Source: an uncultured virus (IMG/VR IMGVR_UViG_3300028588_000812) (lineage: Duplodnaviria > Heunggongvirae > Uroviricota > Caudoviricetes). Taken from it: a stretch of DNA of 49,763 bases. This document shows positions 3,814-24,624 of the stretch, in pieces. Positions within the stretch are counted from its first letter, which is position 1. Each line of letters opens with the position of its first letter. The notes beneath the pieces are model-generated. The model was not told the origin of the DNA. It made no database searches and worked only from the letters and a program-made list of their open reading frames with translations. The DNA lies in IMG/VR virus record IMGVR_UViG_3300028588_000812; one strand, 5' to 3'. The position numbers and the translations under genes are program-made.

Positions 3814-5013
3814 TTATGAAGCGATGGATAAACCAGTTTGTGTGTTCAAAGTCCAAGAAGCTCTTGAACCAGCAACTTGTGTTGGTGCATCTTTAGTAAC
3901 GGAATAAGAGAACGTACCTTGTACAAGAAGACCTACTGGGTTATCTTCGTTACCTAATGCTGGATTAGCAGCAACAATCTCTTCTTTTGAAAGGTTGCTG
4001 TTTTTAGCCATAAGGTCAACAACGGTAGAGTTTTTTGCTTCATATGAAGAAGTAGCACCAGTTTCTACAATGATAATATCTTTACCAGTAGTAGAGGTAG
4101 AACCATAAATTTTGTTAACCTGAATGTTCGTTTCTTCTGCACGAGGGCTACCATCACGAGAAATTGGTGTTGGTAAGTAATCTCCAACAAGAAGACCAGT
4201 ACCTACTAAAGATTCCCCGTTGAAAGCGTCAGGAGAAGATAGAAGAGATTTGTTTTGTGCTAACCAGTCGGCATCACTTTGCTTGTCATTGTCTAAACGA
4301 GTTGAGTCTAAACCTTGTTCAGCTAAGAAAGTAACAGCAGTTTTTTGAGCAGCAGCGGCATCTTCTTCTGTGAAGCCATGCTCAGTTAAGCTTGCAACGT
4401 CAGATTTGCTGGAGTCGTATTTAAGAGCACCAGAATTAGGGTCAATCGTTGTCTTACAGTATGTGCCATAGTCATCAGTAACTTCTTCTTGAGGTACAAC
4501 ATCGCCATACTTACCTGGATCTTCTGTGGAACAAGCTACAGTGTCAGTTGGTGCAGGTGCATTGGTTTTGTCATCATTTGGCATTTGGCCACCTGTGCAT
4601 GCTGCAAGGCTAACAAGTAAGGTACCAGCGATACCTGCTGCAATTAGAGGCTTCTTAACGCGAGCTACGGTGCGTGCTAAAGCGTTTTTCCATGCATTCA
4701 TGGACCCACCAGTAACACCGTGCTCATCGGCTTCTGCTCGGGCTTGTAGAAGATTTTTCAAAATAGCTACTTTTTCCTTTTCGTCAAGAGTATTATCGTA
4801 CTTTGCTTTGAATTCCTCTAAATTAAAGTATTGTTCTAACTCTTCTTTAGAAGGAGCTTCTAAACCGCGACCCTCTTTGTTTAGTTCTTTCATAATAGCA
4901 TATATCTGTTCTTTGTCAACACCTGTCTTAGCATGAACGTATGTTAAAACGGCTTTTGTATTAGCACGATGACGTAAACAACGTTTTCCGCCTTTTGATT
5001 TTGGTGCGCACAT
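3814..5013 (-). CDS. MC..GGxRC-tagged protein with an internal lipoprotein-like signal
   Basis: Starts MCAPKSKGGKRC; about 120 aa later RVKKPLIAAGIAGTLLVSLAA-C (lipobox-like), then an acidic extracytoplasmic domain. Confidence 0.75.
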   Translation of the reverse strand: MCAPKSKGGKRCLRHRANTKAVLTYVHAKTGVDKEQIYAIMKELNKEGRGLEAPSKEELEQYFNLEEFKAKYDNTLDEKEKVAILKNLLQARAEADEHGVTGGSMNAWKNALARTVARVKKPLIAAGIAGTLLVSLAACTGGQMPNDDKTNAPAPTDTVACSTEDPGKYGDVVPQEEVTDDYGTYCKTTIDPNSGALKYDSSKSDVASLTEHGFTEEDAAAAQKTAVTFLAEQGLDSTRLDNDKQSDADWLAQNKSLLSSPDAFNGESLVGTGLLVGDYLPTPISRDGSPRAEETNIQVNKIYGSTSTTGKDIIIVETGATSSYEAKNSTVVDLMAKNSNLSKEEIVAANPALGNEDNPVGLLVQGTFSYSVTKDAPTQVAGSRASWTLNTQTGLSIAS

Positions 5014-5055
5014 ATGTGTAGTTCCCTTTATTCTTCTTGGTTTCTCTGGTATTCC

Positions 5056-5061
5056 TATCGG
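5056..5061 (-). promoter_or_regulatory. CCGATA promoter-like motif
   Basis: About 43 nt upstream of the start at 5013; recurrent motif. Confidence 0.6.
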
Positions 5062-5167
5062 TTAGAAAAGGCAAAAAGGACATAAACGTGTCTTTTTTAA
5101 GGTTTTATTTGAATTTGCTTAAAGTTTTATTTTTATGCAGAAAAACAAGAATTTTTACATTGCACTA

Positions 5168-6586
5168 TCAAATACTCTTTATATAAACCGTGTGTCCAGA
5201 ATTCCAAATTCTTGGTTTATTGGTCATGTCAGAAACACTATCTTTATCAATACGTTTATGGCCTGTTGAATAAGTGAAGTCTGGTTCTATAGTTTTATTT
5301 TCAACAAAATTATTATTTATATAATCCTTAGGATTATCATGTGCATTATCTAAAATAGCTGTTATTTTATTTACTGCATATTTGTGTTGAATGAAATCTA
5401 GCAAACGCCCAAAGCTATCTGTGGTACTGTTCTTCATAGTGTAAGATTTTATATGTATTTGTTTATCTTGTTCGTAATCAAACGATAGGATAGCTTTTAT
5501 ATTATTGTACTCATCAGTTAATCCGTAGTTATATGTACCAATATCAGTTCTAGTTAAATTATACTTTCCCGTAAAAGTTTCTGCGTCAAGTAAATCAATT
5601 GATGTAATTTTAGTGTTATCTAAATTATTATCTATATTGAACACTTCCTCTAATTTAGCCATTACTGCTTCTCTTTTGGAATTCCAGTCATCTTCCCAGA
5701 TTTGTATTAAACGGATACCTTGTTGTTGGCATTGCATCCATTTATTATAATGAAATTGAGTATTTTTTCTGATAGCGTCAGTATGCCAATATATGCCATT
5801 ATATTCAATTGCAATCCTTAACGATGGTACATATATATCCAGTTCTGAGCCGTTCAGTATACTTCTGTTAGAAGTTTCATGAGTTATGTTCCACTTTGTG
5901 AGTAGCTTGCTGATTTCTGCCTCTGCAACAGAAGCACCACCAGCAAATGCACAAGCAGGGCATCCTGATGGAACTTTTTTAGTAGCTCTATTTTTAATAA
6001 CTGCTTCCCATGCATGTCCGCATGTTTCGCTTAACCACCATACCTTTTTCCCAGAACCAGCCACAAAATTTTCTGCTTTTAATTCTCCGTTTAAGGTTGG
6101 GTGAAACTCAGCAGCAACATTAGGATGCGTAGTAGGCAAATCATTAAAACCAATTAAAACTCTTTGATTAGAGCAAAAAGGGCATCCTCTTTTATTTCTT
6201 GTTCTTTTATCTACACTCGCTTGCCATGCATGTTGATGTTGTTTACATTGCCACCATGGTTTTTTGTCTGAGCCTGCTACTAAATCTTGCGCTTTTAATT
6301 CTCCGTTTAAGGTTGGGTGAAACTCAGCAGCAACATTAGGATGCGTAGTAGGCAAATCATTAAAACCAATTATGGCTTTTCTGCCGGAACACCCTGGACA
6401 GCCTGATTTGTTAACGCCAGTTCTTAAATTAGCCGAGGCTTGCCATGCATGTTGATATTTATTACATGCCCACCATACTTTTTTGTTGGAACCTGCGGTT
6501 AGATGTTGCGCTTTCAACTCTCCGTTTAAGGTTGGGTGGAACTCAGCAGCAAGATTAGGATGCGTATTTAATAAGCTATCAAGCAT
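5168..6586 (-). CDS. Zinc-ribbon repeat (DUF4379-like) protein with a PD-(D/E)XK/Vsr-like endonuclease domain; homing-endonuclease-like
   Basis: Three repeats of HPxxAAEFHPTLNG..KxWWxC..HxW..GCPxC, then ELDIYVPSLRIAIEYNGIYWH and IRLIQIWEDDW. Confidence 0.8.
   Translation of the reverse strand: MLDSLLNTHPNLAAEFHPTLNGELKAQHLTAGSNKKVWWACNKYQHAWQASANLRTGVNKSGCPGCSGRKAIIGFNDLPTTHPNVAAEFHPTLNGELKAQDLVAGSDKKPWWQCKQHQHAWQASVDKRTRNKRGCPFCSNQRVLIGFNDLPTTHPNVAAEFHPTLNGELKAENFVAGSGKKVWWLSETCGHAWEAVIKNRATKKVPSGCPACAFAGGASVAEAEISKLLTKWNITHETSNRSILNGSELDIYVPSLRIAIEYNGIYWHTDAIRKNTQFHYNKWMQCQQQGIRLIQIWEDDWNSKREAVMAKLEEVFNIDNNLDNTKITSIDLLDAETFTGKYNLTRTDIGTYNYGLTDEYNNIKAILSFDYEQDKQIHIKSYTMKNSTTDSFGRLLDFIQHKYAVNKITAILDNAHDNPKDYINNNFVENKTIEPDFTYSTGHKRIDKDSVSDMTNKPRIWNSGHTVYIKSI
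6075..6372. repeat. Two identical 82-bp direct repeats (6075-6156, 6291-6372; 216-bp period); a diverged third copy near 6510-6566
   Basis: gcttttaattctccgtttaaggttgggtgaaactcagcagcaacattaggatgcgtagtaggcaaatcattaaaaccaatta occurs twice. Confidence 0.9.
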
Positions 6587-6758
6587 CTTTGCTCTCTATA
6601 TTACTTTCAATGCTTTCTGGGTTCCAACCTTGTACTAGTATTGTGCCAGTCGATTTAATTTTAATACCTAAAATAGCTCCTTCATTAAATAATGATAAAG
6701 CTTGTCTGTATGACAATCCTTCTTGTTTGGCGAATAGTGATAGTTTAATTTTATCCAT
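6579..6758 (-). CDS. 59-aa HTH protein resembling the IS607 TnpA/MerR-like N-terminal domain (below ORF-track cutoff)
   Basis: MDKIKLSLFAKQEGLSYRQALSLFNEGAILGIKIKSTGTILVQGWNPESIESNIESKDA*; TGTTATAAT 5 nt before the ATG; stop overlaps the ATG of the nuclease gene. Confidence 0.7.
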   Translation of the reverse strand: MDKIKLSLFAKQEGLSYRQALSLFNEGAILGIKIKSTGTILVQGWNPESIESNIESKDA

Positions 6759-6847
6759 AATATATTATAACATATATTGGTATAAAACGTCATATTTTGT
6801 ATTTATTACTTAATCTTATAAGGCTATTTTACTCAGTATGTTGTTGA

Positions 6848-7096
6848 CTATTTGTGTTCTGTGGATGAGAATGCTAGCTCAACATTGTCTGATGTAGGTT
6901 CAGGTATATAGATTACGAAGTAAGTATGTTGAGTGGTATTAGTTTTTTCTAATAGTTCACTTAGGCTAGGTGCTGAGTGTTGCACTTTGTTGTGTTCTAT
7001 TGCTACCCATTGGTTAACATAGTTCTCGTTCAAGTCCTGTGTTAGTTCTGGCGTGAAGATGTTGTCAGGTTGTTTAGGTGTTTTACGCTTTTTCAT
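6848..7096 (-). CDS. Small DUF5678-like protein
   Basis: YVNQWVAIEHNKVQHSAPSLSELL pattern. Confidence 0.55.
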   Translation of the reverse strand: MKKRKTPKQPDNIFTPELTQDLNENYVNQWVAIEHNKVQHSAPSLSELLEKTNTTQHTYFVIYIPEPTSDNVELAFSSTEHK

Positions 7097-7192
7097 TGAA
7101 AACCTATCATGGATTGTTTACTATGGTTTTAGTATATCATCTATATTTTGTTGTAGTAGATTTCTTTTTAGGTTTCTGGTAGACTTGGGTTT

Positions 7193-7693
7193 ATGTTTAC
7201 TTCTTTAGTTTTGGCTTCTACTACACCTGTTGTCGGTGGGTTTGAAAAACTGTCTGCTGACACTCCTTTCTTTACTTGGAACTTTTTTACTATTGCTATT
7301 CCTGTAGTAGCGATTGTATTAGCTTTCTTGTATTTCTTGCATGATGAATGGGCTTCTCCCCTTTTCTTAATATTTATTGTTATTGTTGTTTTTATATTTA
7401 CTCAACTTTTTGGTGGTTTGGCTGCTAATAGTAATGCGGTAGATAAAAATGCTGTAAAACAGTTACCTGATTATGATAAGTGGGTTAGTGAGCGTTATGG
7501 TTTGAATGGGTTGCCTAAGGATGTTTTGAAAGACCTTTATTCGGGTACCAATGTTGACCTTATTAACATTGGTACTGTTACTATGATGGAGCAGGGGGAG
7601 AATACTTTCTATCTTGTTTATGATGAGAATGATAAGGAGTTGCCTGTTGTTGGTGACACTAGTGGCCAAAAAGAGAAAACTAATACTTGGTAA
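7193..7693 (+). CDS. Two-TM membrane protein, probably leaderless
   Basis: Two hydrophobic helices; YDKWVSERYGL resembles YNEWLNTRYGI of 391..996; TGGTAGACT 7 nt before the ATG. Confidence 0.75.
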   Translation: MFTSLVLASTTPVVGGFEKLSADTPFFTWNFFTIAIPVVAIVLAFLYFLHDEWASPLFLIFIVIVVFIFTQLFGGLAANSNAVDKNAVKQLPDYDKWVSERYGLNGLPKDVLKDLYSGTNVDLINIGTVTMMEQGENTFYLVYDENDKELPVVGDTSGQKEKTNTW

Positions 7694-7735
7694 GTAATTC
7701 TTAGACGAATTAACTAACTCTGCTAAAATTAATTT

Positions 7736-8041
7736 ATGGCATATATTAGAAAAGAATACGGTCTTAAGGTTACTCATACTGATGGTAAAGTCGAGTTTGT
7801 AAAGTGCGAGAATTTTAATTCTGTTACTTCTACAGCTTATGATTATATCCATAGTTTTGGTCCAAATAATATTGAATTAGAAACCATTGTTCGCACTGTT
7901 TTTGTGGATGAGTGGGAAGTCTTGGATAATCTTCTTCGTCCTAGGGGACCAGATGCTATGTATGAACATACTGTTGAAATTGGTAGTTCTTCTATTCAAG
8001 ATAGTATCCAAGAGCTTTTGGAAGAAATCAATAAAGAATAA
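7736..8041 (+). CDS. Hypothetical protein, probably leaderless
   Basis: 101 aa ORF; TGCTAAAAT 6 nt before the ATG. Confidence 0.7.
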   Translation: MAYIRKEYGLKVTHTDGKVEFVKCENFNSVTSTAYDYIHSFGPNNIELETIVRTVFVDEWEVLDNLLRPRGPDAMYEHTVEIGSSSIQDSIQELLEEINKE

Positions 8042-8057
8042 TTCTATTTGCTAGTAA

Positions 8058-8113
8058 CAAAAATGTCTGATTATTCGTACATAATAAAAAGTACGAATAA
8101 TCAGACATTTTTG
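8058..8113. terminator. Bidirectional terminator, 23-bp stem
   Basis: caaaaatgtctgattattcgtac...gtacgaataatcagacatttttg between convergent genes. Confidence 0.8.
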
Positions 8114-8128
8114 GTTTTGGAGCTTTGT

Positions 8129-8863
8129 TTAGAACCTTACATGAGTTTTGACATTTCTGTTATTTCTTTTGTATTCCATTTGGCCTTTGTCTAATAGGAA
8201 GACTTGTCCTGTCTGGTTGGATAGAGCCACTTCTATTATTTCAGTGGCAGCAGTTTCTGGTGTATGAGGTTTGATACCTTTTGGAATATCTAATGTGAGG
8301 TCAGCTAATCTTTGTGGGTCGTTTTTGTATCGTTCTTCTGTAGAGTTAGATTGTATTGAGCCTAGTGTGGCTACGTTAACGCGAACGAAGTCTTGGGTTA
8401 ACTCTGGGATTAAACCGTTCATTAAGCCTTCTAGGGCTGCTTTGGATGCCGAATAGATGGGTAGACCGTAATCTACGTAAGCGTTAATTGAAGATATGAA
8501 TGTAATACTTCCGTTAGCATTTATTTTGTTCTTTGTTGCTAGAACAACATCTATTGCTGATAAGAAATTGTTTTGTATGGTATTTGTGATTACTTGTTGG
8601 TCTTCAATGATTTCTGTGGCAGCAAGCTCTTCTGGGCTTACCCCACCAGCTATATGAATAATGTAATCAACTTTAAGATTATGAATATCAAAGGTAGGTA
8701 GTTGACCTTCACCAAGTTTAGTTTGAATGAAATTATCTAATGGATATGCTGTTTCATCTTTATCTAAACCGTATACTTCTATACCTTTGCTAAGTAAGTT
8801 TTCTATAACAGCTTTACCAATTTCACCATTGGAACCTGTTATTAGAGCTTTTTTATCTGTCAT
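8129..8863 (-). CDS. SDR-family NAD(P)-dependent oxidoreductase
   Basis: ALITGSNGEIG (TGxxxGIG-like) and catalytic YSASK; start moved to MTDKK (8872 also possible) because the longer ORF crosses a terminator. Confidence 0.85.
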   Translation of the reverse strand: MTDKKALITGSNGEIGKAVIENLLSKGIEVYGLDKDETAYPLDNFIQTKLGEGQLPTFDIHNLKVDYIIHIAGGVSPEELAATEIIEDQQVITNTIQNNFLSAIDVVLATKNKINANGSITFISSINAYVDYGLPIYSASKAALEGLMNGLIPELTQDFVRVNVATLGSIQSNSTEERYKNDPQRLADLTLDIPKGIKPHTPETAATEIIEVALSNQTGQVFLLDKGQMEYKRNNRNVKTHVRF

Positions 8864-8942
8864 ATTAATCATGTTGCTTTTACTATCTGTACTTTTATGA
8901 CATACTGTATATAAACTAGGTATATATACAGTTATTTGATAT

Positions 8943-8984: not shown

Positions 8985-8993
8985 TACTCTATG

Positions 8994-12115: not shown

Positions 12116-12119
12116 TGTA

Positions 12120-12166: not shown

Positions 12167-13037
12167 ATCCTGCCATTGAACGTAAACGCTCAATTCTTTC
12201 TTCAATTGGTGGATGTGTTGCTGTCACGCGTGTAAACCAGTTTTGTTTTCTTTTGCGTTCTGGTGATTCAAAGAATAACATTGTTGTTGATGTGGAGGTT
12301 TTTAAGGACGCTCCACTGTAGTTACTGATTTTACTTAACGCAGAGGCTAAACCTTCTGGGTATCTTGTAATTTCAGCACCTGTTGCATCAGCAAGGTATT
12401 CTCGTTCTCTTCCTGCGGCTGCTGCTAACAAATGGGATACTGGCCATACGATTAGTAAGATTACACCTGCCACAAGAAGCAACGGTACAGCGTTCTTGTC
12501 TCTTCCAGCGAAGAAGACCATACGGATTGATAGGTCTACTAGAAGAGCAATTGCAGCTACCATTGCGAAAACAATGGTTTTAAATCTTACATCATAGTTT
12601 TTGATGTGACCCATTTCGTGAGAAATGACACCTTCTAACTCTTGTTTATCTAAAGTGTTTAGAAGTCCAGTTGTAAATCCTAGAATTGAATCTTCGGGAT
12701 TTCTTCCTGCTGCGAAAGCATTTGGTGCGGAATCATCTATTATGTAAATTGAAGGCGTAGGAATTCCTACTGTGATTGCCAAATTTTCTACAAGACGGTA
12801 TAAACGTGGATTTTCTTCTTTGTCCATTGGTTTGGCACGCATCATCAATACTGCTAGTTTGGAACTGAAATAGTATTGAATAATGATGTAAACAATGACA
12901 CCAATGATAATCCACATGCTTACCATGTAGTTGTCTGTGGCGAAACCTACTGTAGCTCCGATTAAAGCAAATAGAAGACCAAATCCAAGCATAAAGAAGA
13001 AACTGTTACGTTTGTTTCTACTTATTTGCTGGTACAA
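12165..13037 (-). CDS. htpX: HtpX/M48 membrane zinc metalloprotease
   Basis: PNAFAAG, HEMGH, REREYLAD, THPPIEERI. Confidence 0.92.
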   Translation of the reverse strand: MYQQISRNKRNSFFFMLGFGLLFALIGATVGFATDNYMVSMWIIIGVIVYIIIQYYFSSKLAVLMMRAKPMDKEENPRLYRLVENLAITVGIPTPSIYIIDDSAPNAFAAGRNPEDSILGFTTGLLNTLDKQELEGVISHEMGHIKNYDVRFKTIVFAMVAAIALLVDLSIRMVFFAGRDKNAVPLLLVAGVILLIVWPVSHLLAAAAGREREYLADATGAEITRYPEGLASALSKISNYSGASLKTSTSTTMLFFESPERKRKQNWFTRVTATHPPIEERIERLRSMAG

Positions 13038-13046
13038 TTATTTTCC

Positions 13047-13619
13047 TTAGAAGTTTAGTGTTGGAGGTTCTTCAATTGCGCGACGGTCTTCAACCTCAAA
13101 GAATTCTGCTTCTGTGATTTTTGAACGCTTAGCAATTACGCTTGAAGGGAATTGTTGGATTTTTGTGTTTAGGTCACGTACAGAACCGTTGTAGAAACGA
13201 CGAGAAGCCATAACTTTGTCTTCTGTGTCAGTGATTTCCTCTTGTAGGTTAAGGAAGTTCTGGTTAGCTTGTAGTTGAGGGTAAGCTTCTGCTACAGCGA
13301 ATAGGCTCTTCAATGCGCCTTGCATTTCGCCTTCTGCGCGAGCAGCAGCTTCTGGACCTTGTGAAGTAGCGCTAATAGTAGATGCACGAGCTTCGGTTAC
13401 TTGACGGAAAACGCCTTCTTCGTGCTTAGCGTATGATTGTACTGTTTTTAGTAAGTTAGGTAGTAAATCTGCACGACGTTTTAGTTGTACGGTAATTGTG
13501 CTCCATGCTTCTTCAACTTGTACTCTAGATTTTACTAGACTGTTGTGAATTGCAATACCGGCAAACACAACAATTGCTGCGATAACTACTAATACAATAA
13601 TTGCAATTAATAATCCCAT
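13047..13619 (-). CDS. lemA: LemA family protein
   Basis: LKRRADLLPNL, AVAEAYPQLQANQNF, RRFYN; upstream of htpX as usual. Confidence 0.95.
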   Translation of the reverse strand: MGLLIAIIVLVVIAAIVVFAGIAIHNSLVKSRVQVEEAWSTITVQLKRRADLLPNLLKTVQSYAKHEEGVFRQVTEARASTISATSQGPEAAARAEGEMQGALKSLFAVAEAYPQLQANQNFLNLQEEITDTEDKVMASRRFYNGSVRDLNTKIQQFPSSVIAKRSKITEAEFFEVEDRRAIEEPPTLNF

Positions 13620-13658
13620 TGTTTATTCTCTTTCCTTAATTTGGTTGTTCATCCTATA

Positions 13659-13684
13659 TATCGGACAAGACTAATTATACCATT
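13659..13684 (-). promoter_or_regulatory. Tandem TGGTATAAT (sigma-A extended -10) and CCGATA motifs upstream of lemA
   Basis: Minus strand reads aatggtataattagtcttgtccgata. Confidence 0.65.
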
Positions 13685-13759
13685 TATGTTTAAAAGCTAA
13701 CTTTTCTGTAAAACTGGTATAATCATTTCATCCCTTTTACTGAAAGAACAACTAATAAT

Positions 13760-14440
13760 ATGCCCGAAGAATTTAACTTGTCTAAAGACGTTTTGGATAA
13801 AGCTAAAACTGTAGATACTTCCAAAAGTAAAAAGAAAAGCAAGACTTTACGTTGGGTTATTTCTGGCGTCTTACTTGTAGCTATTGTTGGCGTGTTCTCT
13901 TTTAATATTAAGAACTGGTTTACTCCTAGTAACTTTAATGAGGACATTCCATTGTCAGAAAATATTTCACGTTGGGATGCTTTAAGCTGGGGAGCTAAAG
14001 GTAACTTTGAAGGTGACAATCTTGATACTAAAACTGGTGACTGGACCTTAAACACCGAAACTGGTGATTTCACTAGTAAAGAATATGACGGTTGTTCCAT
14101 GTACTTTAACCGTTTGACCGGAGACTATGGTGATTTCGGTAATGATAAGCAAGACACTGAAGCTTACACTAAGAAATTCTTTGAAGGTAAAGAACTTTCT
14201 AATAGCACTGCGTGGGTTCCTTTAAAAGGGTATGATACTCGTGGTATTGAAGTAGCTAAATCTAAGTACATTGATGAGGCCGGTAATTATTCTATGGCTT
14301 ATTACCGTCACTCTCCTTTGAACAAAGTTGTTTTCTTCGGTGTTGTGCGTTGTGCTGATGAAAGCACTTTAGAGAAAATTGCACCTACTGATGGTGATGG
14401 TTCTGAGTTAGCTGATTTAGGTATTTGGTTGAAGATTTAA
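13760..14440 (+). CDS. Membrane-anchored extracytoplasmic protein
   Basis: Basic N-terminus, one TM, two Cys; TGGTATAAT upstream. Confidence 0.75.
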   Translation: MPEEFNLSKDVLDKAKTVDTSKSKKKSKTLRWVISGVLLVAIVGVFSFNIKNWFTPSNFNEDIPLSENISRWDALSWGAKGNFEGDNLDTKTGDWTLNTETGDFTSKEYDGCSMYFNRLTGDYGDFGNDKQDTEAYTKKFFEGKELSNSTAWVPLKGYDTRGIEVAKSKYIDEAGNYSMAYYRHSPLNKVVFFGVVRCADESTLEKIAPTDGDGSELADLGIWLKI

Positions 14441-14512: not shown

Positions 14513-14746
14513 TTAGGCGTCAATGTCTTCGCCTTCTTCGTCTTCTACTTCGATTTCAGGTGAGTAGAAGATAAGGTCTAGAATACGGTTTGAGAAGTCT
14601 ATATCTGTTTCTAGTACGTAAATCATTGCTCTTAGAACAATGGATGCACTGAGTTCGTTCTTGGCAGCATAGGTGCGAAGAAAGTTCTTTTGCTCAACAT
14701 CAAGGTCAAGACTGAAACGAACTACTCGTGGTTGGTACTTGGTCAT
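14513..14746 (-). CDS. Small ribbon-helix-helix-like DNA-binding protein
   Basis: VVRFSLDLD strand followed by two helices (SASIVLRAMI); acidic tail. Confidence 0.55.
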   Translation of the reverse strand: MTKYQPRVVRFSLDLDVEQKNFLRTYAAKNELSASIVLRAMIYVLETDIDFSNRILDLIFYSPEIEVEDEEGEDIDA

Positions 14747-14865: not shown

Positions 14866-15291
14866 TTAAGCGGCTTTCATAGCAAAACGAATAGGTGCTG
14901 GTTTGCCTGAATTAAGGCGCTCTAGGGCGTGCTCACGGGCAAAGCGCTGTCCTTGACCGGTCTTAAGACGAGTTTCAAGTTCAGTAATAAGTGCTGGGTC
15001 ACTTGCGCTGGCAATTTCATCGTTAAGTTTGCGACGACCAGTTAATGTACCGTCAACGTCACGCTGAGTATGACGCAATTCGGTTTTTACTGTTTCTAGA
15101 CGATTAGTAACAGCAGTTTTACGCTCAGATAATTTCTTAACTTCGCTGGCTTTATTCTCAGAAACTGCCTTACTGATACTTTTTTCTAGGTCATCACACT
15201 CAGCAACGTATTTACCAACACGTTTTTCGAGTTGACCCAGCCTACGACTGCTATCGTTATAGCAACGTGGGCCTGGTTGTGCTTGACACAT
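14866..15291 (-). CDS. MC..GPRC-tagged basic coiled-coil protein (141 aa)
   Basis: Start revised to MCQAQPGPRC, with RBS gaaagga upstream and GCCGATA at 15358-15364. Confidence 0.75.
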   Translation of the reverse strand: MCQAQPGPRCYNDSSRRLGQLEKRVGKYVAECDDLEKSISKAVSENKASEVKKLSERKTAVTNRLETVKTELRHTQRDVDGTLTGRRKLNDEIASASDPALITELETRLKTGQGQRFAREHALERLNSGKPAPIRFAMKAA

Positions 15292-15445
15292 AGTTTTGGG
15301 AAGTCCTTTCAAAAAGACAATATCGTAAATATTCGTCTTTTGTATCTCTAACAATGCTATCGGCGTTAAATAACAGAAAAAGACGAAATCCAATAAAAAG
15401 TTGGAAAAAATTCCACTTTTCTCCACTATCCTCCACTATAACAAA

Positions 15446-15492: not shown

Positions 15493-15500
15493 CACGTAAT

Positions 15501-19344: not shown

Positions 19345-19737
19345 TTAAAGTTGATTGATAAATTCTGGCAATCCAGAAAATATACCCCAAATTGCTGTAA
19401 CTCCAAGAGCTACGTAAATTATAAATATAACAGTGTTAATAATCATTGTTATTAACGAAACACTAATACCTATGATAGCTGGCCATTTAGGTTTTCTCTT
19501 TTTAACTAGAGAAACAATACCTAAGATAAGTGCTAATGGTAGTAAGAAGAAAGCAAAGATGCCCATGAACGGGATGATTGAAGTGATAACACCTGCAATC
19601 ATGAGAGCAAAACTCCACATACCTAGAGGGTTAGCACCCCATAAGCTTTTATTTATAATAACAACTTTAGGTTGGTTTCTGTATTCTTCTTCCTCTATAG
19701 AATATAAGTTTACAGGTTGATGTTCTAGGTTTGTCAT
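19345..19737 (-). CDS. Small three-TM protein (DUF4190-like)
   Basis: LILGIVSLVKKRKPKWPAIIGI; start MTNLE overlaps the upstream stop (TAATG). Confidence 0.75.
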   Translation of the reverse strand: MTNLEHQPVNLYSIEEEEYRNQPKVVIINKSLWGANPLGMWSFALMIAGVITSIIPFMGIFAFFLLPLALILGIVSLVKKRKPKWPAIIGISVSLITMIINTVIFIIYVALGVTAIWGIFSGLPEFINQL

Positions 19738-20030
19738 TAAAGTAAAGCAATCCCTAATAATCCAACTAAGATTACTCCTATGACAAGGAAAATAATAACA
19801 CCAGCGAAGGAAACAATTAAGGTTACAATTGCTGGCCATTTAGGTTGCTCTTTTTTGACCAATGAAATGATAGCTAGAACAAGACCAGCTAAACTGGCAA
19901 AACCAGAAACGCCACCTAAACCAACAAGGCTAAGTAGTATCCCCGCAACTGTAACAATAACAGCCAAAGTTCCGTAACGGGCTGTTTCAAATAAGCCTGG
20001 TTGGGTTGATGATGTATTATAATTTGACAT
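19737..20030 (-). CDS. Small three-TM protein, paralog of the neighbour
   Basis: LVLAIISLVKKEQPKWPAIVT. Confidence 0.75.
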   Translation of the reverse strand: MSNYNTSSTQPGLFETARYGTLAVIVTVAGILLSLVGLGGVSGFASLAGLVLAIISLVKKEQPKWPAIVTLIVSFAGVIIFLVIGVILVGLLGIALL

Positions 20031-20064
20031 TTACGTATATTCCTCTCGTTCTTCCCCTAAAACA

Positions 20065-20100
20065 ATAATAGAGGAAGAATATATATTCTTCCTCTATTAT
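20065..20100. repeat. Perfect 36-bp palindrome (terminator or operator)
   Basis: ataatagaggaagaatatatattcttcctctattat equals its own reverse complement. Confidence 0.85.
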
Positions 20101-20133
20101 ATCAGCAGATACGCAAATGATTAATTTAGTTAT

Positions 20134-20580
20134 TTAGCTTTGCTCTGTAATGTATGTGTAATAACTTGAAGCGTAATCTCTATACAACTTAGAATATAAA
20201 ACAGTACGATAAAAGTTTGTACTCATAAGGTTAGCTTCTTCAACATATTTAGCGTAAAGGTTCTCAATGAATTCTTTTTCAGAATACTTTTTATCTAAAC
20301 ACTCATTTTTAAGATTTTCTAAGTCTTCCATTGCAATAGCTTCAAAAGCTAAACAAACCTTTTTACGGTCAGTAGCTTTCGAGTCACGCATAAAATGGGC
20401 CTGGTAGGGGATATTGAAAGTGGCAATAAAATTGTCGTCAAATTCAACTTCCATGCCATATAGACCACAAATAAAGCTTAGTTCATTACGTACGCTAGCT
20501 TTACCCTGTTTGTTGAGAAAAACATCCCAAATAATTACGTCATTTGAGGTAACCAAGTTACCTTTGTATTCAGAAAACAA
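20134..20580 (-). CDS. Hypothetical protein
   Basis: 148 aa ORF overlapping the upstream gene end. Confidence 0.65.
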   Translation of the reverse strand: MFSEYKGNLVTSNDVIIWDVFLNKQGKASVRNELSFICGLYGMEVEFDDNFIATFNIPYQAHFMRDSKATDRKKVCLAFEAIAMEDLENLKNECLDKKYSEKEFIENLYAKYVEEANLMSTNFYRTVLYSKLYRDYASSYYTYITEQS

Positions 20581-21034
20581 GTTCTTTACCTCCGTTACGG
20601 AAATACTCTGCTACGTTAGCAGGATATTTCATTAATTCTGCTGCATAAATGCTGTGGAAATGATTTGACCCTTTACGCAAAATTAAGTCCTCATAGTGTC
20701 TATTTAGATACTCTGTGACAAGCTCTTCAGTAAGTTCGTCGTAAGTAATTTTGGATAAAAATTTAGCACCTGTACGGATATAACTCGCAATAGAGTTACG
20801 TGTCTCCTTACTATAAAATTCAAGAGATTTTAGTGCACCTTCAATGTTTGCAGGCGTTGGCTCTACATCACCTGAATATTCTGCAAACGAAAATTCAGGA
20901 GTTAAGTCATCCTGAATAGTAACGCGAAGGTGGCCTTCTGCTACACTGCGGTCAAAGATGTATTTGTCACGGGGCGCATAGGTACCACGGCAAGCATGTT
21001 GAAACAAGCTAAGATTAGTCATGTCATAAATCAT
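20570..21034 (-). CDS. Hypothetical protein
   Basis: 154 aa ORF; TATGCT 6 nt before the ATG. Confidence 0.7.
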   Translation of the reverse strand: MIYDMTNLSLFQHACRGTYAPRDKYIFDRSVAEGHLRVTIQDDLTPEFSFAEYSGDVEPTPANIEGALKSLEFYSKETRNSIASYIRTGAKFLSKITYDELTEELVTEYLNRHYEDLILRKGSNHFHSIYAAELMKYPANVAEYFRNGGKELVF

Positions 21035-21063
21035 TTAATAAGCATAACATTATTTTGGTCTAA

Positions 21064-21105
21064 AAGCAATATGCCACTCACTTAAATGTGAGTGGCATAT
21101 TGCTT
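21064..21105. terminator. Terminator of the desaturase gene
   Basis: aagcaatatgccactcac-ttaaat-gtgagtggcatattgctt. Confidence 0.85.
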
Positions 21106-21112
21106 AAATGTT

Positions 21113-22249
21113 TTAATTACGTGGTCGTAATTCTGCAATCATAGGGCAAACAAATGGATCTCTGTTGTTAGATAATCCGACTTTGTTCAAGTAACGAATA
21201 ATTACACCATAAGATTCGATAATACCCATTTCAACAAAAGGCACTTCTTTCTCTTTGCAGTATTCGGTTACAAGTTTATGTGCTTTCTTCAAATGTGGAC
21301 GAGCCATTGAAGGGAACAAATGATGTTCTACTTGGAAGTTTAAACCACCCATAAGGTTGTCCGTTAACCATGTGCTTCTAATGTTACGAGAAGTCAATAC
21401 TTGACGTTCAAAGAAATCAATTTTGGCGTTCCTATCAACCATAGGCATACCTTTATGGTTAGGTGCGAATGCTGCTCCCATGAAGAAACCAAATGACATC
21501 ATCATAATCATCCATAGACCAAATGCAACAAAAATGTTTTGGAAAAGGATTAACGCAACAACAAAAGGTGTAACTTGACGTACAACCATCATACCGAATT
21601 CTAGGAACTTATGTTTAACCTTTTTATCTTTGCTAGTGATTGAAGCGAAAGAATCCAATAATAAGTCAAAGCTAGTAAATAGAAGTAGGAAAGGGAATAA
21701 CCAACCTTGGTTTTTAGAGACAATTTTCTCTACACCTTTTTTCTCTTCCAACGATTCAGTTGTGAATGATAGAACGCGAATGTTAATGTCTGGGTCAGCG
21801 CCAATTTGGTTAGGCTTTGCGTGGTGACGGTTGTGCTTACGCATCCAAAAACCATAGGATAATCCAGCAAGAAGGTTAGCTAGTACCCTACCAGTGTTAT
21901 CATTTAGTCTATTACTACGGAAAACTTGACGGTGTGAGGTTTCGTGAGCGATAAAGGCGTACTGTGCGGCCATTACACCTTGTAGAAGCATAATTGGTAC
22001 AGATACCCAAACGGCACCCCAAAAAGGCATGAGTAAGGCTACAGTCACTAATGCGGCCCAAAGAATAAGTGAGAACGTTGTAATAATAGCTAAACGTTTA
22101 ATATAGAATGAGGGAATTTTTTCTAGAAGTCCAGCTTGTTTAGCTCTAGCTAAGATTTCAGTATAATGTGATAGTGTTTTATTTGCCCCTGTTTTTCGGA
22201 CAGGTGACAATTCGCCATTTTTTACAATGGCATTATTTGTTAAAGTCAT
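21113..22249 (-). CDS. Membrane fatty acid (acyl-CoA) desaturase
   Basis: His boxes HETSH, HNRHH and QVEHHLFP. Confidence 0.92.
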   Translation of the reverse strand: MTLTNNAIVKNGELSPVRKTGANKTLSHYTEILARAKQAGLLEKIPSFYIKRLAIITTFSLILWAALVTVALLMPFWGAVWVSVPIMLLQGVMAAQYAFIAHETSHRQVFRSNRLNDNTGRVLANLLAGLSYGFWMRKHNRHHAKPNQIGADPDINIRVLSFTTESLEEKKGVEKIVSKNQGWLFPFLLLFTSFDLLLDSFASITSKDKKVKHKFLEFGMMVVRQVTPFVVALILFQNIFVAFGLWMIMMMSFGFFMGAAFAPNHKGMPMVDRNAKIDFFERQVLTSRNIRSTWLTDNLMGGLNFQVEHHLFPSMARPHLKKAHKLVTEYCKEKEVPFVEMGIIESYGVIIRYLNKVGLSNNRDPFVCPMIAELRPRN

Positions 22250-22352
22250 GCAGGACTAAACCTTTGTTTATAGTTATTTATTATAGTATCATCTTTTTAT
22301 GTTAAAGTAAACGTTATTGAAGCTTTGAATTTGCCTAACAGAAGAAAAGTTC

Positions 22353-22381
22353 TTGACTTTTCATCACCAATAAGCTAGACT
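22353..22381 (+). promoter_or_regulatory. Sigma-A promoter TTGACT-N17-TAGACT, leaderless
   Basis: Near-consensus -35 and -10; ATG 6 nt downstream at 22388. Confidence 0.75.
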
Positions 22382-22387
22382 CTATAT

Positions 22388-23050
22388 ATGGCTTATAACT
22401 CACATGATCACAAGCGCCCACATAAAGTTCTTCTTCAAAAGAAAGCAAGACTTGGTGCAGCGCAAGCTCTATATGCTTCTTTCGTCGCTTCAAATCTTGT
22501 AGAAGCAAACAACATTCTTGATAACACTTCCTTTGGTTCTCTTGATGCCAAGAGTAAACAGGTCATCAAAGAAGCAATTACGAATAACTCTGATGCGCTA
22601 TTCCTAAGCCGTGTTATTGACTTCCTTCTTACCTTAGAAGATACTTTACAAAGCGCAGAAATTATTAACTGTATCAAGCGTGTAAACAAAACAGTTGTAG
22701 ACGAAAAATTTGTCACACTTACAGACCCTACTGACTTGAGTAAACTAGTAGTTAGCCCTACTTTTGAGGTATTGCTTAACGCTATTGCACCAAACACTCT
22801 TCTAGAGTTCAATGAACAACTTAATGGGACGTTACTTCTTGCATCCCTTGATGAGTACAACAATGATGCTTTAGTGGATTATGCTTTAGAAGCAACTCAA
22901 CGCTTGATTGAGTTTGATAAAGTATCTAAAGACCTTCTATATACAGCTATTCTTGCTGAATATGATTTAGGCGAATTCCATGAAAAAGCAGAACAAATGT
23001 TTACTGATTTCTCAGAAGCAGACCAGTTGGAAGCTTTAAATTCTATTTAG
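22388..23050 (+). CDS. Hypothetical helical protein
   Basis: 220 aa ORF with its own promoter. Confidence 0.75.
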   Translation: MAYNSHDHKRPHKVLLQKKARLGAAQALYASFVASNLVEANNILDNTSFGSLDAKSKQVIKEAITNNSDALFLSRVIDFLLTLEDTLQSAEIINCIKRVNKTVVDEKFVTLTDPTDLSKLVVSPTFEVLLNAIAPNTLLEFNEQLNGTLLLASLDEYNNDALVDYALEATQRLIEFDKVSKDLLYTAILAEYDLGEFHEKAEQMFTDFSEADQLEALNSI

Positions 23051-23063
23051 TTAATACCGATAG
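23037..23063 (+). promoter_or_regulatory. Sigma-28-like promoter TAAA-N15-aCCGATAG
   Basis: taaa ttctatttagttaat accgatag; matches FliA/WhiG consensus spacing. Confidence 0.6.
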
Positions 23064-23097
23064 ATATGATGTAGTTCATATTTATTGGAGTTTTATT

Positions 23098-24624
23098 TTG
23101 TGTAAGTCATGTGCAGAAGGTGGCGTTCGTTGCCAATCTGATACTAGTGTTAAACGTCGTTTACGTAGAAAAACGTCTCAAACTTTAACTACTGTTGCAG
23201 CGCCTGTTAAACCAAATAAATCTTTTAATACTGTTCCTTCTTTAGTATCTTCTGACTTAGTTAATGAAGTTGCCTCTATCCATTCATCTTTGTTAGCTCC
23301 TACAGTCTCTCAAAGTGAACAAGATATTATTGATAGCCATATTGAGCAGAAAGTAACAGCAGTTGGCGCAGAAATTGCTAAAAAAGTAGACGAGCTTGTA
23401 GAACCTTTAAAACAACAGTATAAAGAAGACTATGATGCTCCAAATGATGAGCTTGATGCGGCTATGGTTGTCTATGAAGATGCTTTTGTAGCGGAAGCTG
23501 ATTTAGCACCAGATGCTTCTGATGAAGAAAAGAAAGCTGTTGCTGAACAGGTAGAAAAAGCAGAAGCATTATTTAAAGAAGCTAGCGAGTTAGATGATGT
23601 ACGAAGAAGTGCAATAACTAACGAATATTTATCTAAAGTTGCAGATACGTATGTTACTGTTCTTTCAGATTTTCGCCCTATTGGCGGCAAAGTAAATAAT
23701 GCTACGCGAGATAGCGATGCTAACGCTGTAGCATTATTAGAAGATAGCGTAGAAAAAGTTTATCCTTCTGAATGGATAGATAATTCTAATGCTAGTGGTC
23801 CTCTACATTTTGAGTCCACAAATGGTCGTGCTGGTTTTGTTTCTAACTTAGTTGATTTTAGCGATGAAGCAATTAAGCAATACCCTGATGAAGTAACCAT
23901 GGAAGCACCTGGTCTAGTTTCTACGCATATTCCGAGTGATAAAGCAGAGGAAGTTGCTGCTAAAATTGGCCATGGTGCTTATGTTGCAGATGCCCGAGAG
24001 CTTGATATCAACAATGAAATGGTAAGAATTGTTATCATCCCTGCCCGCGAAATATTTGACCCTAGTGTAGATGCAACAAATGATGATGGTACTCCTGCTG
24101 GTGAAGGTTGGGAACTTAGTCATTTTTACGATTTTAATACTGCGACCGCTACTGAAACACCTGTATGGAATAAAAGCTTAGCTCAACCTGCTGTTAAAAG
24201 AAGCACTATTTCTCTTCCCGAAATTAATGAAGATAAAACACAGCTTGATGCTCAGGCAACAGCTATTCATGAATATGCGCATCGTATGGAAGAAACTAGA
24301 CCACATATTATGCGTATGGAAGAAGCATGGTTAAAACGCCGTACCACAGACCCAGTAACTGGTATCCGTGAAGATAATTCTATTATGTATCCAGTTTTGC
24401 CGGGTACTAGTGTTGGTGATTTAGAGCTTGGCCGTCGTGATAATTTCTTACATCATTACATTGGTAAGGAATACACTACTTCTCATCATCGTGAAGTGTT
24501 TTCTGTTGGTATGGAATCTATGTTTGGGCATCAAAAACTAGGTGGTCTAATTGGGGCTTCCGATAATATAAAAGCGGACCAAGATCATAGAAACTTTATT
24601 CTAGGATTATTAGCAACAGCTTAG
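23098..24624 (+). CDS. MC..GGxRC-tagged protein with C-terminal HExxH zincin-like domain
   Basis: TTG start with ggag RBS; MCKSCAEGGVRC; AIHEYAHRME and downstream REVFSVGME. Confidence 0.75.
   Translation: MCKSCAEGGVRCQSDTSVKRRLRRKTSQTLTTVAAPVKPNKSFNTVPSLVSSDLVNEVASIHSSLLAPTVSQSEQDIIDSHIEQKVTAVGAEIAKKVDELVEPLKQQYKEDYDAPNDELDAAMVVYEDAFVAEADLAPDASDEEKKAVAEQVEKAEALFKEASELDDVRRSAITNEYLSKVADTYVTVLSDFRPIGGKVNNATRDSDANAVALLEDSVEKVYPSEWIDNSNASGPLHFESTNGRAGFVSNLVDFSDEAIKQYPDEVTMEAPGLVSTHIPSDKAEEVAAKIGHGAYVADARELDINNEMVRIVIIPAREIFDPSVDATNDDGTPAGEGWELSHFYDFNTATATETPVWNKSLAQPAVKRSTISLPEINEDKTQLDAQATAIHEYAHRMEETRPHIMRMEEAWLKRRTTDPVTGIREDNSIMYPVLPGTSVGDLELGRRDNFLHHYIGKEYTTSHHREVFSVGMESMFGHQKLGGLIGASDNIKADQDHRNFILGLLATA

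What the first reader, a model, noticed from the sequence alone, without database searches (positions are those of the whole stretch)
3814..24624. Shared N-terminal 'MC..G.RC' tag on three unrelated proteins: candidate sorting/packaging signal system
Seen: ORFs starting at 5013(-), 15291(-) and 23098(+) begin MCAPKSKGGKRC, MCQAQPGPRC and MCKSCAEGGVRC, each followed by basic residues. Their bodies are unrelated: a lipoprotein-like domain, a short coiled coil and an HExxH peptidase. All three have CCGATA upstream. The second is hidden in the ORF track by an over-long start call. Established: T4 internal proteins use a short N-terminal capsid-targeting sequence, and polymorphic toxin systems pair a conserved N-terminal trafficking module with variable cargo. 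Inference: this two-Cys tag marks cargo for virion packaging, ejection or export, or is a small metal-binding/modified leader. I do not recognise it as a named family.
Basis: partly seen in the sequence, partly recalled or inferred. Interest (0 to 1): 0.88.

Follow-up and report, generated by a model that had tools for sequence, protein, structure and literature searches.

The report
Shared N-terminal two-cysteine protein cap
Three unrelated proteins in this small bacterial replicon, and at least four further protein families elsewhere (some on actinobacterial plasmids), all begin with the same 15-residue Met-Cys...Gly-x-Arg-Cys-x-x-His/Asp cap, an undescribed module that probably binds a metal and whose cellular role is still open.

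Summary
Three ORFs (starts 5013-, 15291-, 23098+) begin MC-x(7-9)-RC. These are the only stop-free matches to the motif in long ORFs in all six frames of the window, and each follows a start codon. The cap is conserved in orthologues of all three families, while profile-profile comparison finds no similarity beyond the first 16-23 columns. A profile of the cap, searched against 1.84 billion proteins, gave 40 hits at E<=1e-3. Of these, 37 are genuine: 36 start at residue 1 and one at residue 8 behind a probably over-long start. They fall into 7 unrelated body families, including plasmid genes of Brachybacterium and Rhodococcus. Consensus: MCQ[SP]K[AS]xGGKRCxx[H/D]. No Pfam, NCBIfam, PHROG, PADLOC or PDB entry covers it.

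My best reading (about 45%) is a small metal-binding (probably zinc) cap that uses Cys2, the second Cys, the His/Asp and perhaps the free N-terminus, and serves as a common docking handle. A delivery tag is not excluded: two cargo domains also occur fused to phage MuF head proteins. However, the canonical tag is absent from 2.9 million viral contigs, and in P1 it is cytoplasmic.

CCGATA is not tag-specific. It is a general promoter-like box in front of at least 13 genes here.

The parts
4969..5013 (-). N-terminal cap of P1 (codons 1-15: MCAPKSKGGKRCLRH)
   Evidence: In the 15-sequence family alignment M1, C2, K10, R11, C12 and H15 are invariant.
3814..5013 (-). P1, 399 aa: cap, then a helical cytoplasmic part (to about residue 118), then a signal-anchor with lipobox, then an extracytoplasmic domain
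   Evidence: AF2 model: residues 160-399 are confident, residues 1-41 have pLDDT under 50. No Pfam or NCBIfam match. Present in RNA-library contigs.
4597..4656 (-). P1 internal signal-anchor with lipobox (KKPLIAAGIAGTLLVSLAAC, residues 120-139)
   Evidence: In all 15 aligned family members a hydrophobic stretch behind KK/KR ends in [AGST]-C. The coordinates are computed from the residue numbers of that alignment.
15247..15291 (-). N-terminal cap of P2 (MCQAQPGPRCYNDSS)
   Evidence: M1, C2, Q3, A4, G7, R9, C10, D13 and S14 are invariant in 10 sequences. Orthologue DNA shows synonymous changes (TGT/TGC, CGT/CGC, CAA/CAG).
14866..15291 (-). P2, 141 aa helical protein, immediately downstream of dnaE
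   Evidence: AF2 mean pLDDT 86.7, helices 11-44, 48-80, 83-95 and 99-128, cap loop pLDDT about 60. The order dnaE, P2, small ORF is conserved in L003. RNA-library contigs of 4 runs cover it.
23098..23142 (+). N-terminal cap of P3 (TTG start; MCKSCAEGGVRCQSD)
   Evidence: In 11 family members M1, C2, R11 and C12 are invariant, and G8, D15 and S17 nearly so.
23098..24624 (+). P3, 508 aa: cap, basic KRRLRRK stretch, acidic helical region, C-terminal HExxH domain
   Evidence: Invariant H391, E392, H395, E398.
23659..24618 (+). P3 body (residues 188-507) homologous to the C-terminal part of phage MuF-type head proteins; HExxH at 24268-24282
   Evidence: PHROG 8561 (E=1.4e-9) and PHROG 19443 'minor head protein' (E=5.6e-8). 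tblastn hits in 21 phage records. BLASTP to the Bacillus phage head-morphogenesis protein aligns P3 residues 389-507 with phage residues 578-677 (E=2e-16) and 188-233 with 495-540 (E=0.007), while the Pfam MuF domain of that phage protein is at 182-293.
5056..5061 (-). CCGATA box 42 nt upstream of the P1 start
15358..15363 (-). CCGATA box 66 nt upstream of the P2 start; conserved as GCCGATA in orthologue loci
   Evidence: L002, L003, L004, L005.
23057..23062 (+). CCGATA box 35 nt upstream of the P3 start

Best explanation
The three genes carry an autonomous, strictly N-terminal module of about 15 residues, with consensus M-C-Q-[S/P/A]-K-[A/S]-x-G-G-K-R-C-x-x-[H/D]. It has been joined to at least seven unrelated protein bodies, in this ~791-kb low-GC replicon, in its relatives, and in Actinomycetota (Gordonia chromosome; Brachybacterium and Rhodococcus plasmids).

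Shown: the module exists, it is under purifying selection at the protein level, it is modular, and it is confined to the very N-terminus.

Inferred: it is a small metal-binding cap, most likely for Zn2+. Cys2, the second Cys and the His/Asp three residues later (which sit where the first helix begins) would chelate one ion. The fourth ligand would be the free alpha-amino group, an extra Cys (C5 in P3), or a second chain. That would explain why the module is never internal.

Inferred more weakly: the folded cap with its flanking Lys/Arg is a common docking handle. It would bring different bodies (a membrane lipoprotein precursor, a small helical protein, an HExxH protein, GNAT-like and NUDIX-like proteins) to one partner or site in the cytoplasm. 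It is not itself an export or packaging signal.

The upstream CCGATA is the general promoter-like box of this organism and is unrelated to the tag.
For: Existence and conservation. Synonymous codon variation inside the cap across orthologues.

Only the cap is shared between families.

Profile search of 1.84e9 representatives: 40 hits at E<=1e-3. Three are internal-repeat false positives (P0041, P0051, P0067). The other 37 match from profile position 1, at protein residue 1 in 36 cases and at residue 8 in one (P0042, probably an over-long start). The 37 fall into 7 groups when residues 29 onward are compared by BLAST.

Ligand-like pattern: both Cys are invariant. Position +3 after the second Cys is H in 19, D in 17 and S in 1 of 37. 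Cys-Cys spacing is 7 (8 hits), 9 (28 hits) or 12 (1 hit).

The second Cys and the His/Asp sit at the start of the first predicted helix of P2 (helix from residue 11).

Cytoplasmic location: in P1 the cap precedes 118 residues and then the protein's own signal-anchor and lipobox.

Rhodococcus plasmid homologues also begin (GTG) MCRVGRRCFPH and MCDGINDPGGPRRC behind ribosome sites.

All three window genes occur in contigs of RNA libraries.

Precedents for N-terminal Met-Cys metal sites that use the free amine (HypB CxxCGC, NiSOD Ni-hook) are recalled from memory and come from no call.
Against: No metal binding was measured.

Only three ligand positions are conserved, not four. One Rhodococcus member (MCDGINDPGGPRRCPSQ) has neither H nor D at +3, and one hit has S.

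The H/D count is partly circular, because the search profile already preferred H or D there.

AF2 gives the cap low confidence (pLDDT about 60 in P2, under 50 in P1) and models no ion.

No sequence match to any solved structure. The only zinc-finger family touched, PF24623, stays under its cut-off (15.4 vs 24 bits) and matches only 1 of the 8 N-termini tested.

No common partner gene was found: the window, 25 kb of the Brachybacterium plasmid and 35 kb of the Rhodococcus plasmid share only the P3-type protein and a NERD protein.

Two cargo types are domains that phages fuse to MuF, which fits a delivery role at least as well.
Confidence: 0.45

Rival explanations
1. Delivery or trafficking tag. 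The cap plays the role that MuF, LXG or similar N-terminal modules play in polymorphic-toxin and 'polyvalent' proteins. It would mark effector-like cargo for transfer out of the cell together with DNA (conjugation, phage-like particles) or through an unrecognised export route. It may still bind a metal or DNA.
For: A constant N-terminal module on variable bodies.

P3's HExxH body is homologous to the region C-terminal of the MuF domain in phage head-morphogenesis proteins. The GNAT-like body of P0056 matches part of a Microbacterium phage 'minor capsid protein' and Streptomyces phage acetyltransferases.

The P0056, P0060 and P3-like families sit on Brachybacterium and Rhodococcus plasmids. On one Rhodococcus plasmid two tagged genes lie 2.4 kb apart.

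Passages of PMC5512222 state that MuF is fused to effector domains thought to be delivered with phage DNA, and that GNAT families occur in such proteins on conjugative elements.
Against: The canonical tag DNA pattern has 0 matches in 2.9 million viral contigs, with about 1 expected by chance by my own estimate. That pattern covers only ATG starts and the 9-residue loop.

No tagged P1- or P2-family member was found in the plasmid collection, and the P2 cap region finds nothing among phages.

P1 carries its own Sec-type signal-anchor and lipobox downstream of the cap. P2 is a small helical protein syntenic with dnaE.

No secretion or packaging genes lie next to the three window genes. No immunity-like partner was established.
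Confidence: 0.2
2. Nucleic-acid-binding knuckle. The cap, together with adjacent Lys/Arg, anchors the bodies to DNA or RNA, in the manner of a minimal zinc knuckle or AT-hook-like handle.
For: There are basic residues inside and after the cap (KxxGGKRC; KRRLRRK in the P3 family).

P2 lies next to dnaE in two lineages. The plasmid neighbours include Lsr2 and mIHF genes.

There is a sub-threshold match of one P2-family N-terminus to PF24623 'putative DNA-binding phage zinc finger' (E=0.015).
Against: The PF24623 match is below the cut-off and occurs in 1 of 8 N-termini tested.

P1 is a membrane protein.

A DNA-binding finger would not need to be strictly N-terminal, yet all 37 genuine hits are.

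Gene neighbourhood is weak evidence.
Confidence: 0.12
3. Reactive-cysteine element. The two Cys form a redox-sensitive disulfide or zinc-thiolate switch. Alternatively, Cys2 (exposed after Met removal) is acylated to give a membrane anchor, or serves as a degron.
For: Arg directly precedes the second Cys in every member, which would lower its pKa. This is an inference.

The strict Met-Cys start would expose Cys as residue 1 if methionine aminopeptidase acts. That rule is recalled from memory.

A basic cluster sits next to the Cys residues.
Against: No acyltransferase or redox partner is linked. The thioredoxin gene at 24961-25290 is merely convergent with the P3 operon.

The conserved His/Asp at +3 is better explained by metal ligation.

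P1 already has a membrane anchor.
Confidence: 0.1
4. The signal acts at the nucleotide level (a 5' mRNA element overlapping the start), or the resemblance is chance.
For: All three window caps use CGT-TGY for Arg-Cys.
Against: The codons vary synonymously in orthologues.

The same peptide is encoded in genomes of very different base composition: this 38% GC window and visibly G+C-rich actinobacterial plasmids.

All stop-free matches in long ORFs of the window sit at position 2.

Profile hits reach E=2e-8 against 1.84e9 proteins.
Confidence: 0.01

Closest known systems
HypB N-terminal high-affinity Ni site (MCxxCGC) and the NiSOD 'Ni-hook' (recalled from memory; no call)
   Same: A short metal site at the extreme N-terminus built from Cys2 and nearby Cys, in which the free alpha-amine is a ligand. 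That use of the amine explains a strict N-terminal position.
   Different: Different spacing and residues (C-x7/9-C-x2-H/D with a G-x-R signature). The metal is unknown. No sequence match to any PDB chain.
Treble-clef / zinc-knuckle mini-fingers, including Pfam PF24623 Phage_zn_bind_8
   Same: A Cys from a loop plus Cys-x2-His at the start of a helix. In the window's P3 the first half is even C-x2-C (MCKSC).
   Different: Only three ligand positions are conserved. PF24623 scores 15.4 bits against a cut-off of 24, for 1 of 8 N-termini tested. Known fingers are not restricted to residue 1.
MuF (SPP1 gp7 / Mu F) N-terminal module of phage polymorphic toxins and polyvalent proteins (PMC5512222, passages read; PMC5576092, seen only as search listing and abstract start)
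   Same: A constant N-terminal part with interchangeable C-terminal enzymatic bodies. Two of the bodies found behind the cap (P3's HExxH domain, P0056's GNAT-like domain) also occur behind MuF.
   Different: MuF is a domain of about 110 residues and a virion head component. The cap is 15 residues, lies on a cellular chromosome and on plasmids, and its canonical coding pattern is absent from viral contigs. PF04233 does not match P3.
Phage T4 capsid-targeting sequence of internal proteins
   Same: A short N-terminal peptide shared by unrelated proteins.
   Different: The T4 sequence works in a phage prohead and is cleaved by the prohead protease. Here there is no phage context, no similar cleavage motif was seen, and the defining residues are Cys.
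Rad50 zinc hook / CD4-Lck zinc clasp (recalled from memory)
   Same: Two Cys per chain next to a coiled coil could share one Zn between chains. Most cap bodies continue directly into long helices.
   Different: The hook is CxxC at the apex of a coiled coil, not an N-terminal C-x9-C. Dimerisation was not shown.

Membership tests
Sec / lipoprotein signal peptide | N-terminal basic region, then a hydrophobic core, then a cleavage site or lipobox within the first ~35 residues | tested here: not met
   The caps are polar and charged with no hydrophobic core. In P1 the real signal-anchor and lipobox sit at residues 120-139, downstream of the cap.
Polymorphic-toxin-type N-terminal trafficking module | Conserved N-terminal module joined to diverse, unrelated C-terminal bodies | tested here: met
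   7 body families behind one cap. Only the cap aligns between families.
Polymorphic-toxin-type N-terminal trafficking module | Genetic linkage to a secretion or packaging apparatus | tested here: not met
   No such genes lie beside the three window genes, nor in the 25-35 kb read around the plasmid copies. Whole genomes could not be examined.
Polymorphic-toxin-type N-terminal trafficking module | Cognate immunity gene directly downstream of the toxin body | tested here: inconclusive
   Small ORFs follow P3 (24631-24957), P2 (14513-14746) and the Brachybacterium gene (an overlapping 62-aa ORF). None was shown to be an immunity protein.
Phage virion-packaging signal (T4 CTS-like) | Encoded in a phage genome and present on virion internal proteins | tested here: not met
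   The window has cellular-type gene content. The canonical tag pattern has 0 matches in viral contigs. The P2 cap query has no phage match.
Pfam PF24623 Phage_zn_bind_8 | Score at or above the gathering cut-off (24 bits) | tested here: not met
   The best score is 15.4 bits, E=0.015, for one P2-family N-terminus. There was no hit for the other 7 N-termini tested.
Structural zinc finger (treble clef / knuckle) | Four conserved Cys/His ligands in two pairs | tested here: inconclusive
   Three positions are conserved: C2, the second Cys, and H or D at +3 in 36 of 37 hits. A fourth (C5) is present only in some P3 members. Metal content is not testable here.
Sigma-28 / FliA / WhiG-type promoter (for the CCGATA box) | -10 element GCCGATAA (consensus recalled from memory) | tested here: inconclusive
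   The CCGATA core is exact in 16 sites. The flanking G is not preferred in the window (A4, T5, C3, G4) but is present in P2 orthologue loci.
Sigma-28 / FliA / WhiG-type promoter (for the CCGATA box) | -35 TAAA about 15 nt upstream, and a cognate sigma factor gene | tested here: not met
   There is no consistent -35 in the column counts of the 16 sites. No sigma factor gene lies in the window. The rest of the replicon was not available.

The most novel reading that the evidence does not exclude
The Met-Cys cap is the address label of an unrecognised protein-targeting system of Actinomycetota and this small-genome lineage. In this reading a 15-residue metal-folded N-terminal handle recruits interchangeable effector-type bodies to one machine, possibly the DNA-transfer or cell-contact apparatus. 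Those bodies include an HExxH domain and a GNAT-like domain that phages fuse to MuF, and a NUDIX-like domain. The cap would thus be a minimal functional counterpart of the MuF, LXG or Rhs trafficking modules.
Probability: 0.2. Interest if true: 0.85.

Novelty: new variant of a known kind. Interest (0 to 1): 0.64.

Why it matters
A 15-residue element that is invariant across seven unrelated protein families, from a 38% GC ~0.8-Mb replicon to G+C-rich actinobacterial plasmids, and that always sits at residue 1, is almost certainly recognised by something: a metal, a partner or an enzyme. No curated family library describes it.

If it is a metal cap, it adds a very small portable metal-binding module that depends on the free N-terminus. 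It also gives a simple rule for correcting start codons. Two over-long start calls were found this way: P2 here and a Rhodococcus plasmid gene.

If it is an address label, it would point to a new way of routing plasmid- and chromosome-encoded effector-like proteins in Actinomycetota and in a poorly known small-genome lineage. It would also offer a ready-made tag for reporter fusions.

Tried and rejected
Whole-replicon scan: not possible. No genome is held for the window, and the 791-kb record behind L001 is not searchable.

Relatives in species genomes: both genome-contig scans (P2 and P1 family profiles) found no relative. Viral contigs held no P2 relative. The cap alignment was too variable for the search for related loci (error).

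Profile search of two plasmids with the cap alignment was insensitive: 1 weak hit each, and it missed a GTG-start copy. I therefore fetched both plasmids and scanned them by regex. The Rhodococcus plasmid gave 10 raw matches, of which I judge 2 credible. The Brachybacterium plasmid gave 1.

ESM Atlas: no usable hit for P2. For P1 residues 1-118 only TM<0.5 rows came back.

Foldseek against PDB: nothing at E<=1e-3 for the P2 or P1 models.

Complex prediction with two copies of P2 plus Zn: no verdict (score 0.00, controls not run). This counts neither for nor against dimerisation.

P0058 and P0065: no plasmid match.

Rfam: no family in the window. tRNA: none.

Earlier-findings look-ups: nothing returned.

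Paper searches were keyword searches that returned nothing relevant. They are too coarse to show that the motif is not in print.

RsiG-like c-di-GMP motif in P2: looked for by eye and not present.

Double-glycine leader: rejected, because the GG lies at residues 8-9, too close to the start.

Parts of the window without RNA-contig cover are not interpreted.

Full report
**1. Observation**

Reading the window confirms the three starts.
- ORF 3814-5013(-) begins ATG MCAPKSKGGKRC.
- ORF 23098-24624(+) begins TTG and reads MCKSCAEGGVRC.
- The ORF called 14866-15426(-) contains an ATG at 15291 that gives MCQAQPGPRC.

The internal start of the second gene is the true one. All nine orthologues aligned are 138-143 aa and start MCQ. 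In four orthologue loci ATG-TGY follows a GGAAGGA ribosome site.

A six-frame regex scan gave 11 raw matches to C.{3,8}G.{1,2}RC. The only stop-free ones in long ORFs are these three N-termini, plus a nested match inside the third. Each directly follows a start codon. Three of about 47 ORFs therefore start Met-Cys. Chance is not a reasonable explanation.

**2. The cap is conserved; the bodies are unrelated**

- In the P1 family (15 sequences, down to 33% identity) M1, C2, K10, R11, C12 and H15 are invariant.
- In the P2 family (10 sequences, down to 34%) M1, C2, Q3, A4, G7, R9, C10, D13 and S14 are invariant.
- In the P3 family (11 sequences, down to 22%) M1, C2, R11 and C12 are invariant, and G8, D15 and S17 nearly so.

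Orthologue DNA shows synonymous changes inside the cap (TGT/TGC, CGT/CGC, CAA/CAG). Selection therefore acts on the peptide.

Profile-profile comparison of the three family alignments finds only the N-terminal 16-23 columns (E=5.8e-5, 8e-7 and 1e-3). The A2-A4 alignment runs on to 55 columns but is weak beyond the cap.

**3. Further instances**

I aligned 24 N-termini as A3. The set held 3 window references, 2 locus references and 19 typed parts of stored proteins. I searched its 33-position profile against 1.84 billion representative proteins.

Forty proteins reached E<=1e-3, and only these were listed, so diversity is a lower bound. Three are internal-repeat false positives (P0041, P0051, P0067). 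The other 37 match from profile position 1. In 36 the match starts at protein residue 1. In one (P0042) it starts at residue 8, behind what looks like an over-long start.

BLAST of residues 29 onward sorts the 37 into 7 groups:
- P1-like: 12
- P3-like: 10, plus the fragment P0047
- P2-like: 8
- P0045/49/56: 3
- singletons P0058, P0060 and P0065

The consensus is MCQ[S/P/A]K[A/S]xGGKRCxx[H/D]. Position 3 is Q in 30 of 37. The Cys-Cys spacing is 7, 9 or 12 residues (8, 28 and 1 hits). The residue three after the second Cys is H in 19, D in 17 and S in 1. That last count is partly circular, because the profile favoured H or D there.

**4. Where else it occurs**

- The Gordonia otitidis relative of P3 starts MCKAENEPGGPKRC in its RefSeq form.
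- The 90%-identity cluster of P0056 holds named members from Brachybacterium, Microbacterium and Helcobacillus. A 94%-identical copy lies on a Brachybacterium avium plasmid.
- P0060-like and P3-like genes lie on Rhodococcus plasmids.
- On NZ_CP120357.1 the two are 2.4 kb apart. They start (GTG) MCRVGRRCFPH, where the annotated start is over-long, and MCDGINDPGGPRRC.
- P1- and P2-family proteins were not found on plasmids.
- A degenerate DNA pattern for the canonical cap has no match in 2.9 million viral contigs.

**5. What the bodies are**

P1 has the cap, then about 105 helical residues, then a KK-hydrophobic-[AGST]C stretch at residues 120-139 that looks like a lipoprotein signal. That stretch is conserved in all 15 members. 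A confidently modelled extracytoplasmic domain follows. The cap is therefore made, and at first stays, in the cytoplasm, and it is not the export signal.

P2 is a confident helical protein (pLDDT 86.7) whose first helix starts at residue 11, right after the second Cys. It sits directly downstream of dnaE here and in L003.

P3 has an invariant HExxH...E. Its residues 188-233 and 389-507 align with the part of a Bacillus phage head-morphogenesis protein that lies C-terminal of that protein's MuF domain.

The GNAT-like part of P0056 matches a segment of a Microbacterium phage 'minor capsid protein' and Streptomyces phage acetyltransferases. The C-terminal third of P0060 matches plasmid NUDIX proteins.

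Passages of PMC5512222 describe MuF as fused to effector domains thought to be delivered with phage DNA. They also describe GNAT families in such proteins on conjugative elements.

**6. Known families**

No Pfam, NCBIfam, PHROG or PADLOC model covers the cap, and no PDB sequence matches it. The only hint is PF24623 at 15.4 bits against a cut-off of 24, for one of eight N-termini tested.

**7. CCGATA**

The window has 16 copies. Nine are expected, and 3 of 100 shuffles reach 16. Thirteen lie 11-86 nt upstream of the next same-strand start. Two more lie at the 5' tip of a probably over-long ORF call. Genes behind the box include lemA-htpX, thioredoxin, gyrB, a pilin-like gene and several ORFans.

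GCCGATA is conserved upstream of P2 orthologues of only 38-40% protein identity.

Contigs from four RNA libraries covering lemA-htpX all end at 13654-13658, just downstream of the box at 13659-13664. That is a weak hint of a transcription start.

The box is therefore a general promoter-like element. Its core equals that of sigma-28-type -10 elements (consensus recalled from memory), but no consistent -35 was seen.

**8. The replicon**

Gene content is cellular: dnaE, dnaG, gyrBA, clpP1P2 (best PDB matches are chains deposited as 'proteolytic subunit 1', which I recall to be mycobacterial), clpC, htpX, lemA and pncB. However, 23 of 40 other ORFs have no Pfam match.

Identical proteins occur on contigs of 787,832, 791,393 and 791,407 bases. 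Relatives lie on contigs of 0.6-0.73 Mb. I could not place the lineage. It is either an Actinomycetota-like or a Patescibacteria-like small-genome bacterium.

Near-identical DNA is held in runs labelled leaf litter (which may be the source) and straw.

Contigs of RNA libraries cover all three tagged genes. No RNA contig reaches the alternative GTG start of P2 at 15426. The longest one ends at 15421.

**9. Interpretation**

Shown:
- The module is modular, conserved and strictly N-terminal.
- It is cytoplasmic in P1.
- It is not a signal peptide.
- It is not linked to CCGATA.

Inferred: two invariant Cys plus a His/Asp at the start of the first helix form a metal site, and the free N-terminus is a ligand. 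That would explain why no internal copy exists. The precedents, HypB and NiSOD, are recalled from memory.

What the cap is for remains open. I favour a common docking or oligomerisation handle. A delivery tag is the main rival, because two bodies are MuF-type cargo and three families are plasmid-borne.

Structure prediction gave low confidence for the cap. The complex job gave no verdict.

Noticed in passing
window, 16 sites (e.g. 13659-13664-, 25320-25325-, 30969-30974+, 3777-3782-): CCGATA acts as a general promoter-like box. Thirteen of 16 copies lie 11-86 nt upstream of a same-strand start. Contigs from four RNA libraries end at 13654-13658, just after the lemA box. There is no consistent -35 element, and no sigma factor gene in the window.
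   Followed up: partly
window 15292-15357(-); L002 1053-1120, L003 3588-3653, L005 279-344: The P2 5' leader is conserved across orthologues of 38-40% protein identity. It reads GCCGATA, then GTTAGAGATA, then a hairpin AAAGAC...GTCTTT with a variable loop, then GGAAGGA and ATG. This may be a regulatory leader structure. It was not folded or modelled.
   Followed up: no
window 4597-4656(-): P1 has a lipoprotein-type signal-anchor with lipobox about 120 residues from its N-terminus, behind a cytoplasmic domain. The arrangement is conserved in all 15 family members. If signal peptidase II cuts there, a capped, membrane-anchored N-terminal fragment would be released.
   Followed up: partly
L009 16553-18343 (Rhodococcus rhodochrous plasmid NZ_CP120357.1) and 12926-14332: Two cap-bearing genes lie 2.4 kb apart and are divergently oriented. 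The annotated start of the first is about 60 codons too long: a GTG behind GGAGGA gives MCRVGRRCFPH. Neighbours include mIHF, NUDIX, Hsp70/GrpE and a sigma-70-family gene.
   Followed up: partly
L007 12001-13055 (Brachybacterium avium plasmid NZ_CP022317.1): A cap-bearing GNAT-like gene is followed by a 62-aa ORF that overlaps its stop codon. This might be a toxin/antidote-like pair. An Lsr2 gene and a prepilin peptidase gene lie downstream.
   Followed up: no
window 5168-6586(-): A 472-aa protein has three tandem DUF4379 treble-clef zinc-finger repeats (E=1.5e-55) and an unassigned C-terminal half.
   Followed up: no
window 43615-46023(-): An ~800-aa protein has a type IV pilin-like N-terminus (...EEGFSLIEILLGIVVIG...) and no Pfam match for the rest. 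A CCGATA box lies 11 nt before the called start.
   Followed up: no
window 35733-36281(-): A stand-alone 182-aa ORF has a sub-threshold intein-splicing/Hint match (23 bits against a cut-off of 35.8). It is not embedded in a host gene.
   Followed up: no
whole window: 23 of 40 other ORFs have no Pfam match. Phage-flavoured genes (DNMK, MazG-like, PTH2, two NERD genes, NAPRTase) sit among housekeeping genes. Identical proteins lie on contigs of about 791 kb in three assemblies, which suggests a closed small replicon of an unplaced lineage.
   Followed up: partly
window 14513-14746(-) and L003 4171-4425: A small conserved ORF (77-84 aa, MxKYxPRVVRFSLDLDVEQKNFLR...) directly follows P2 in both lineages. 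It has its own CCGATA box in the window. It looks ribbon-helix-helix-like by eye only, and this was not tested.
   Followed up: no
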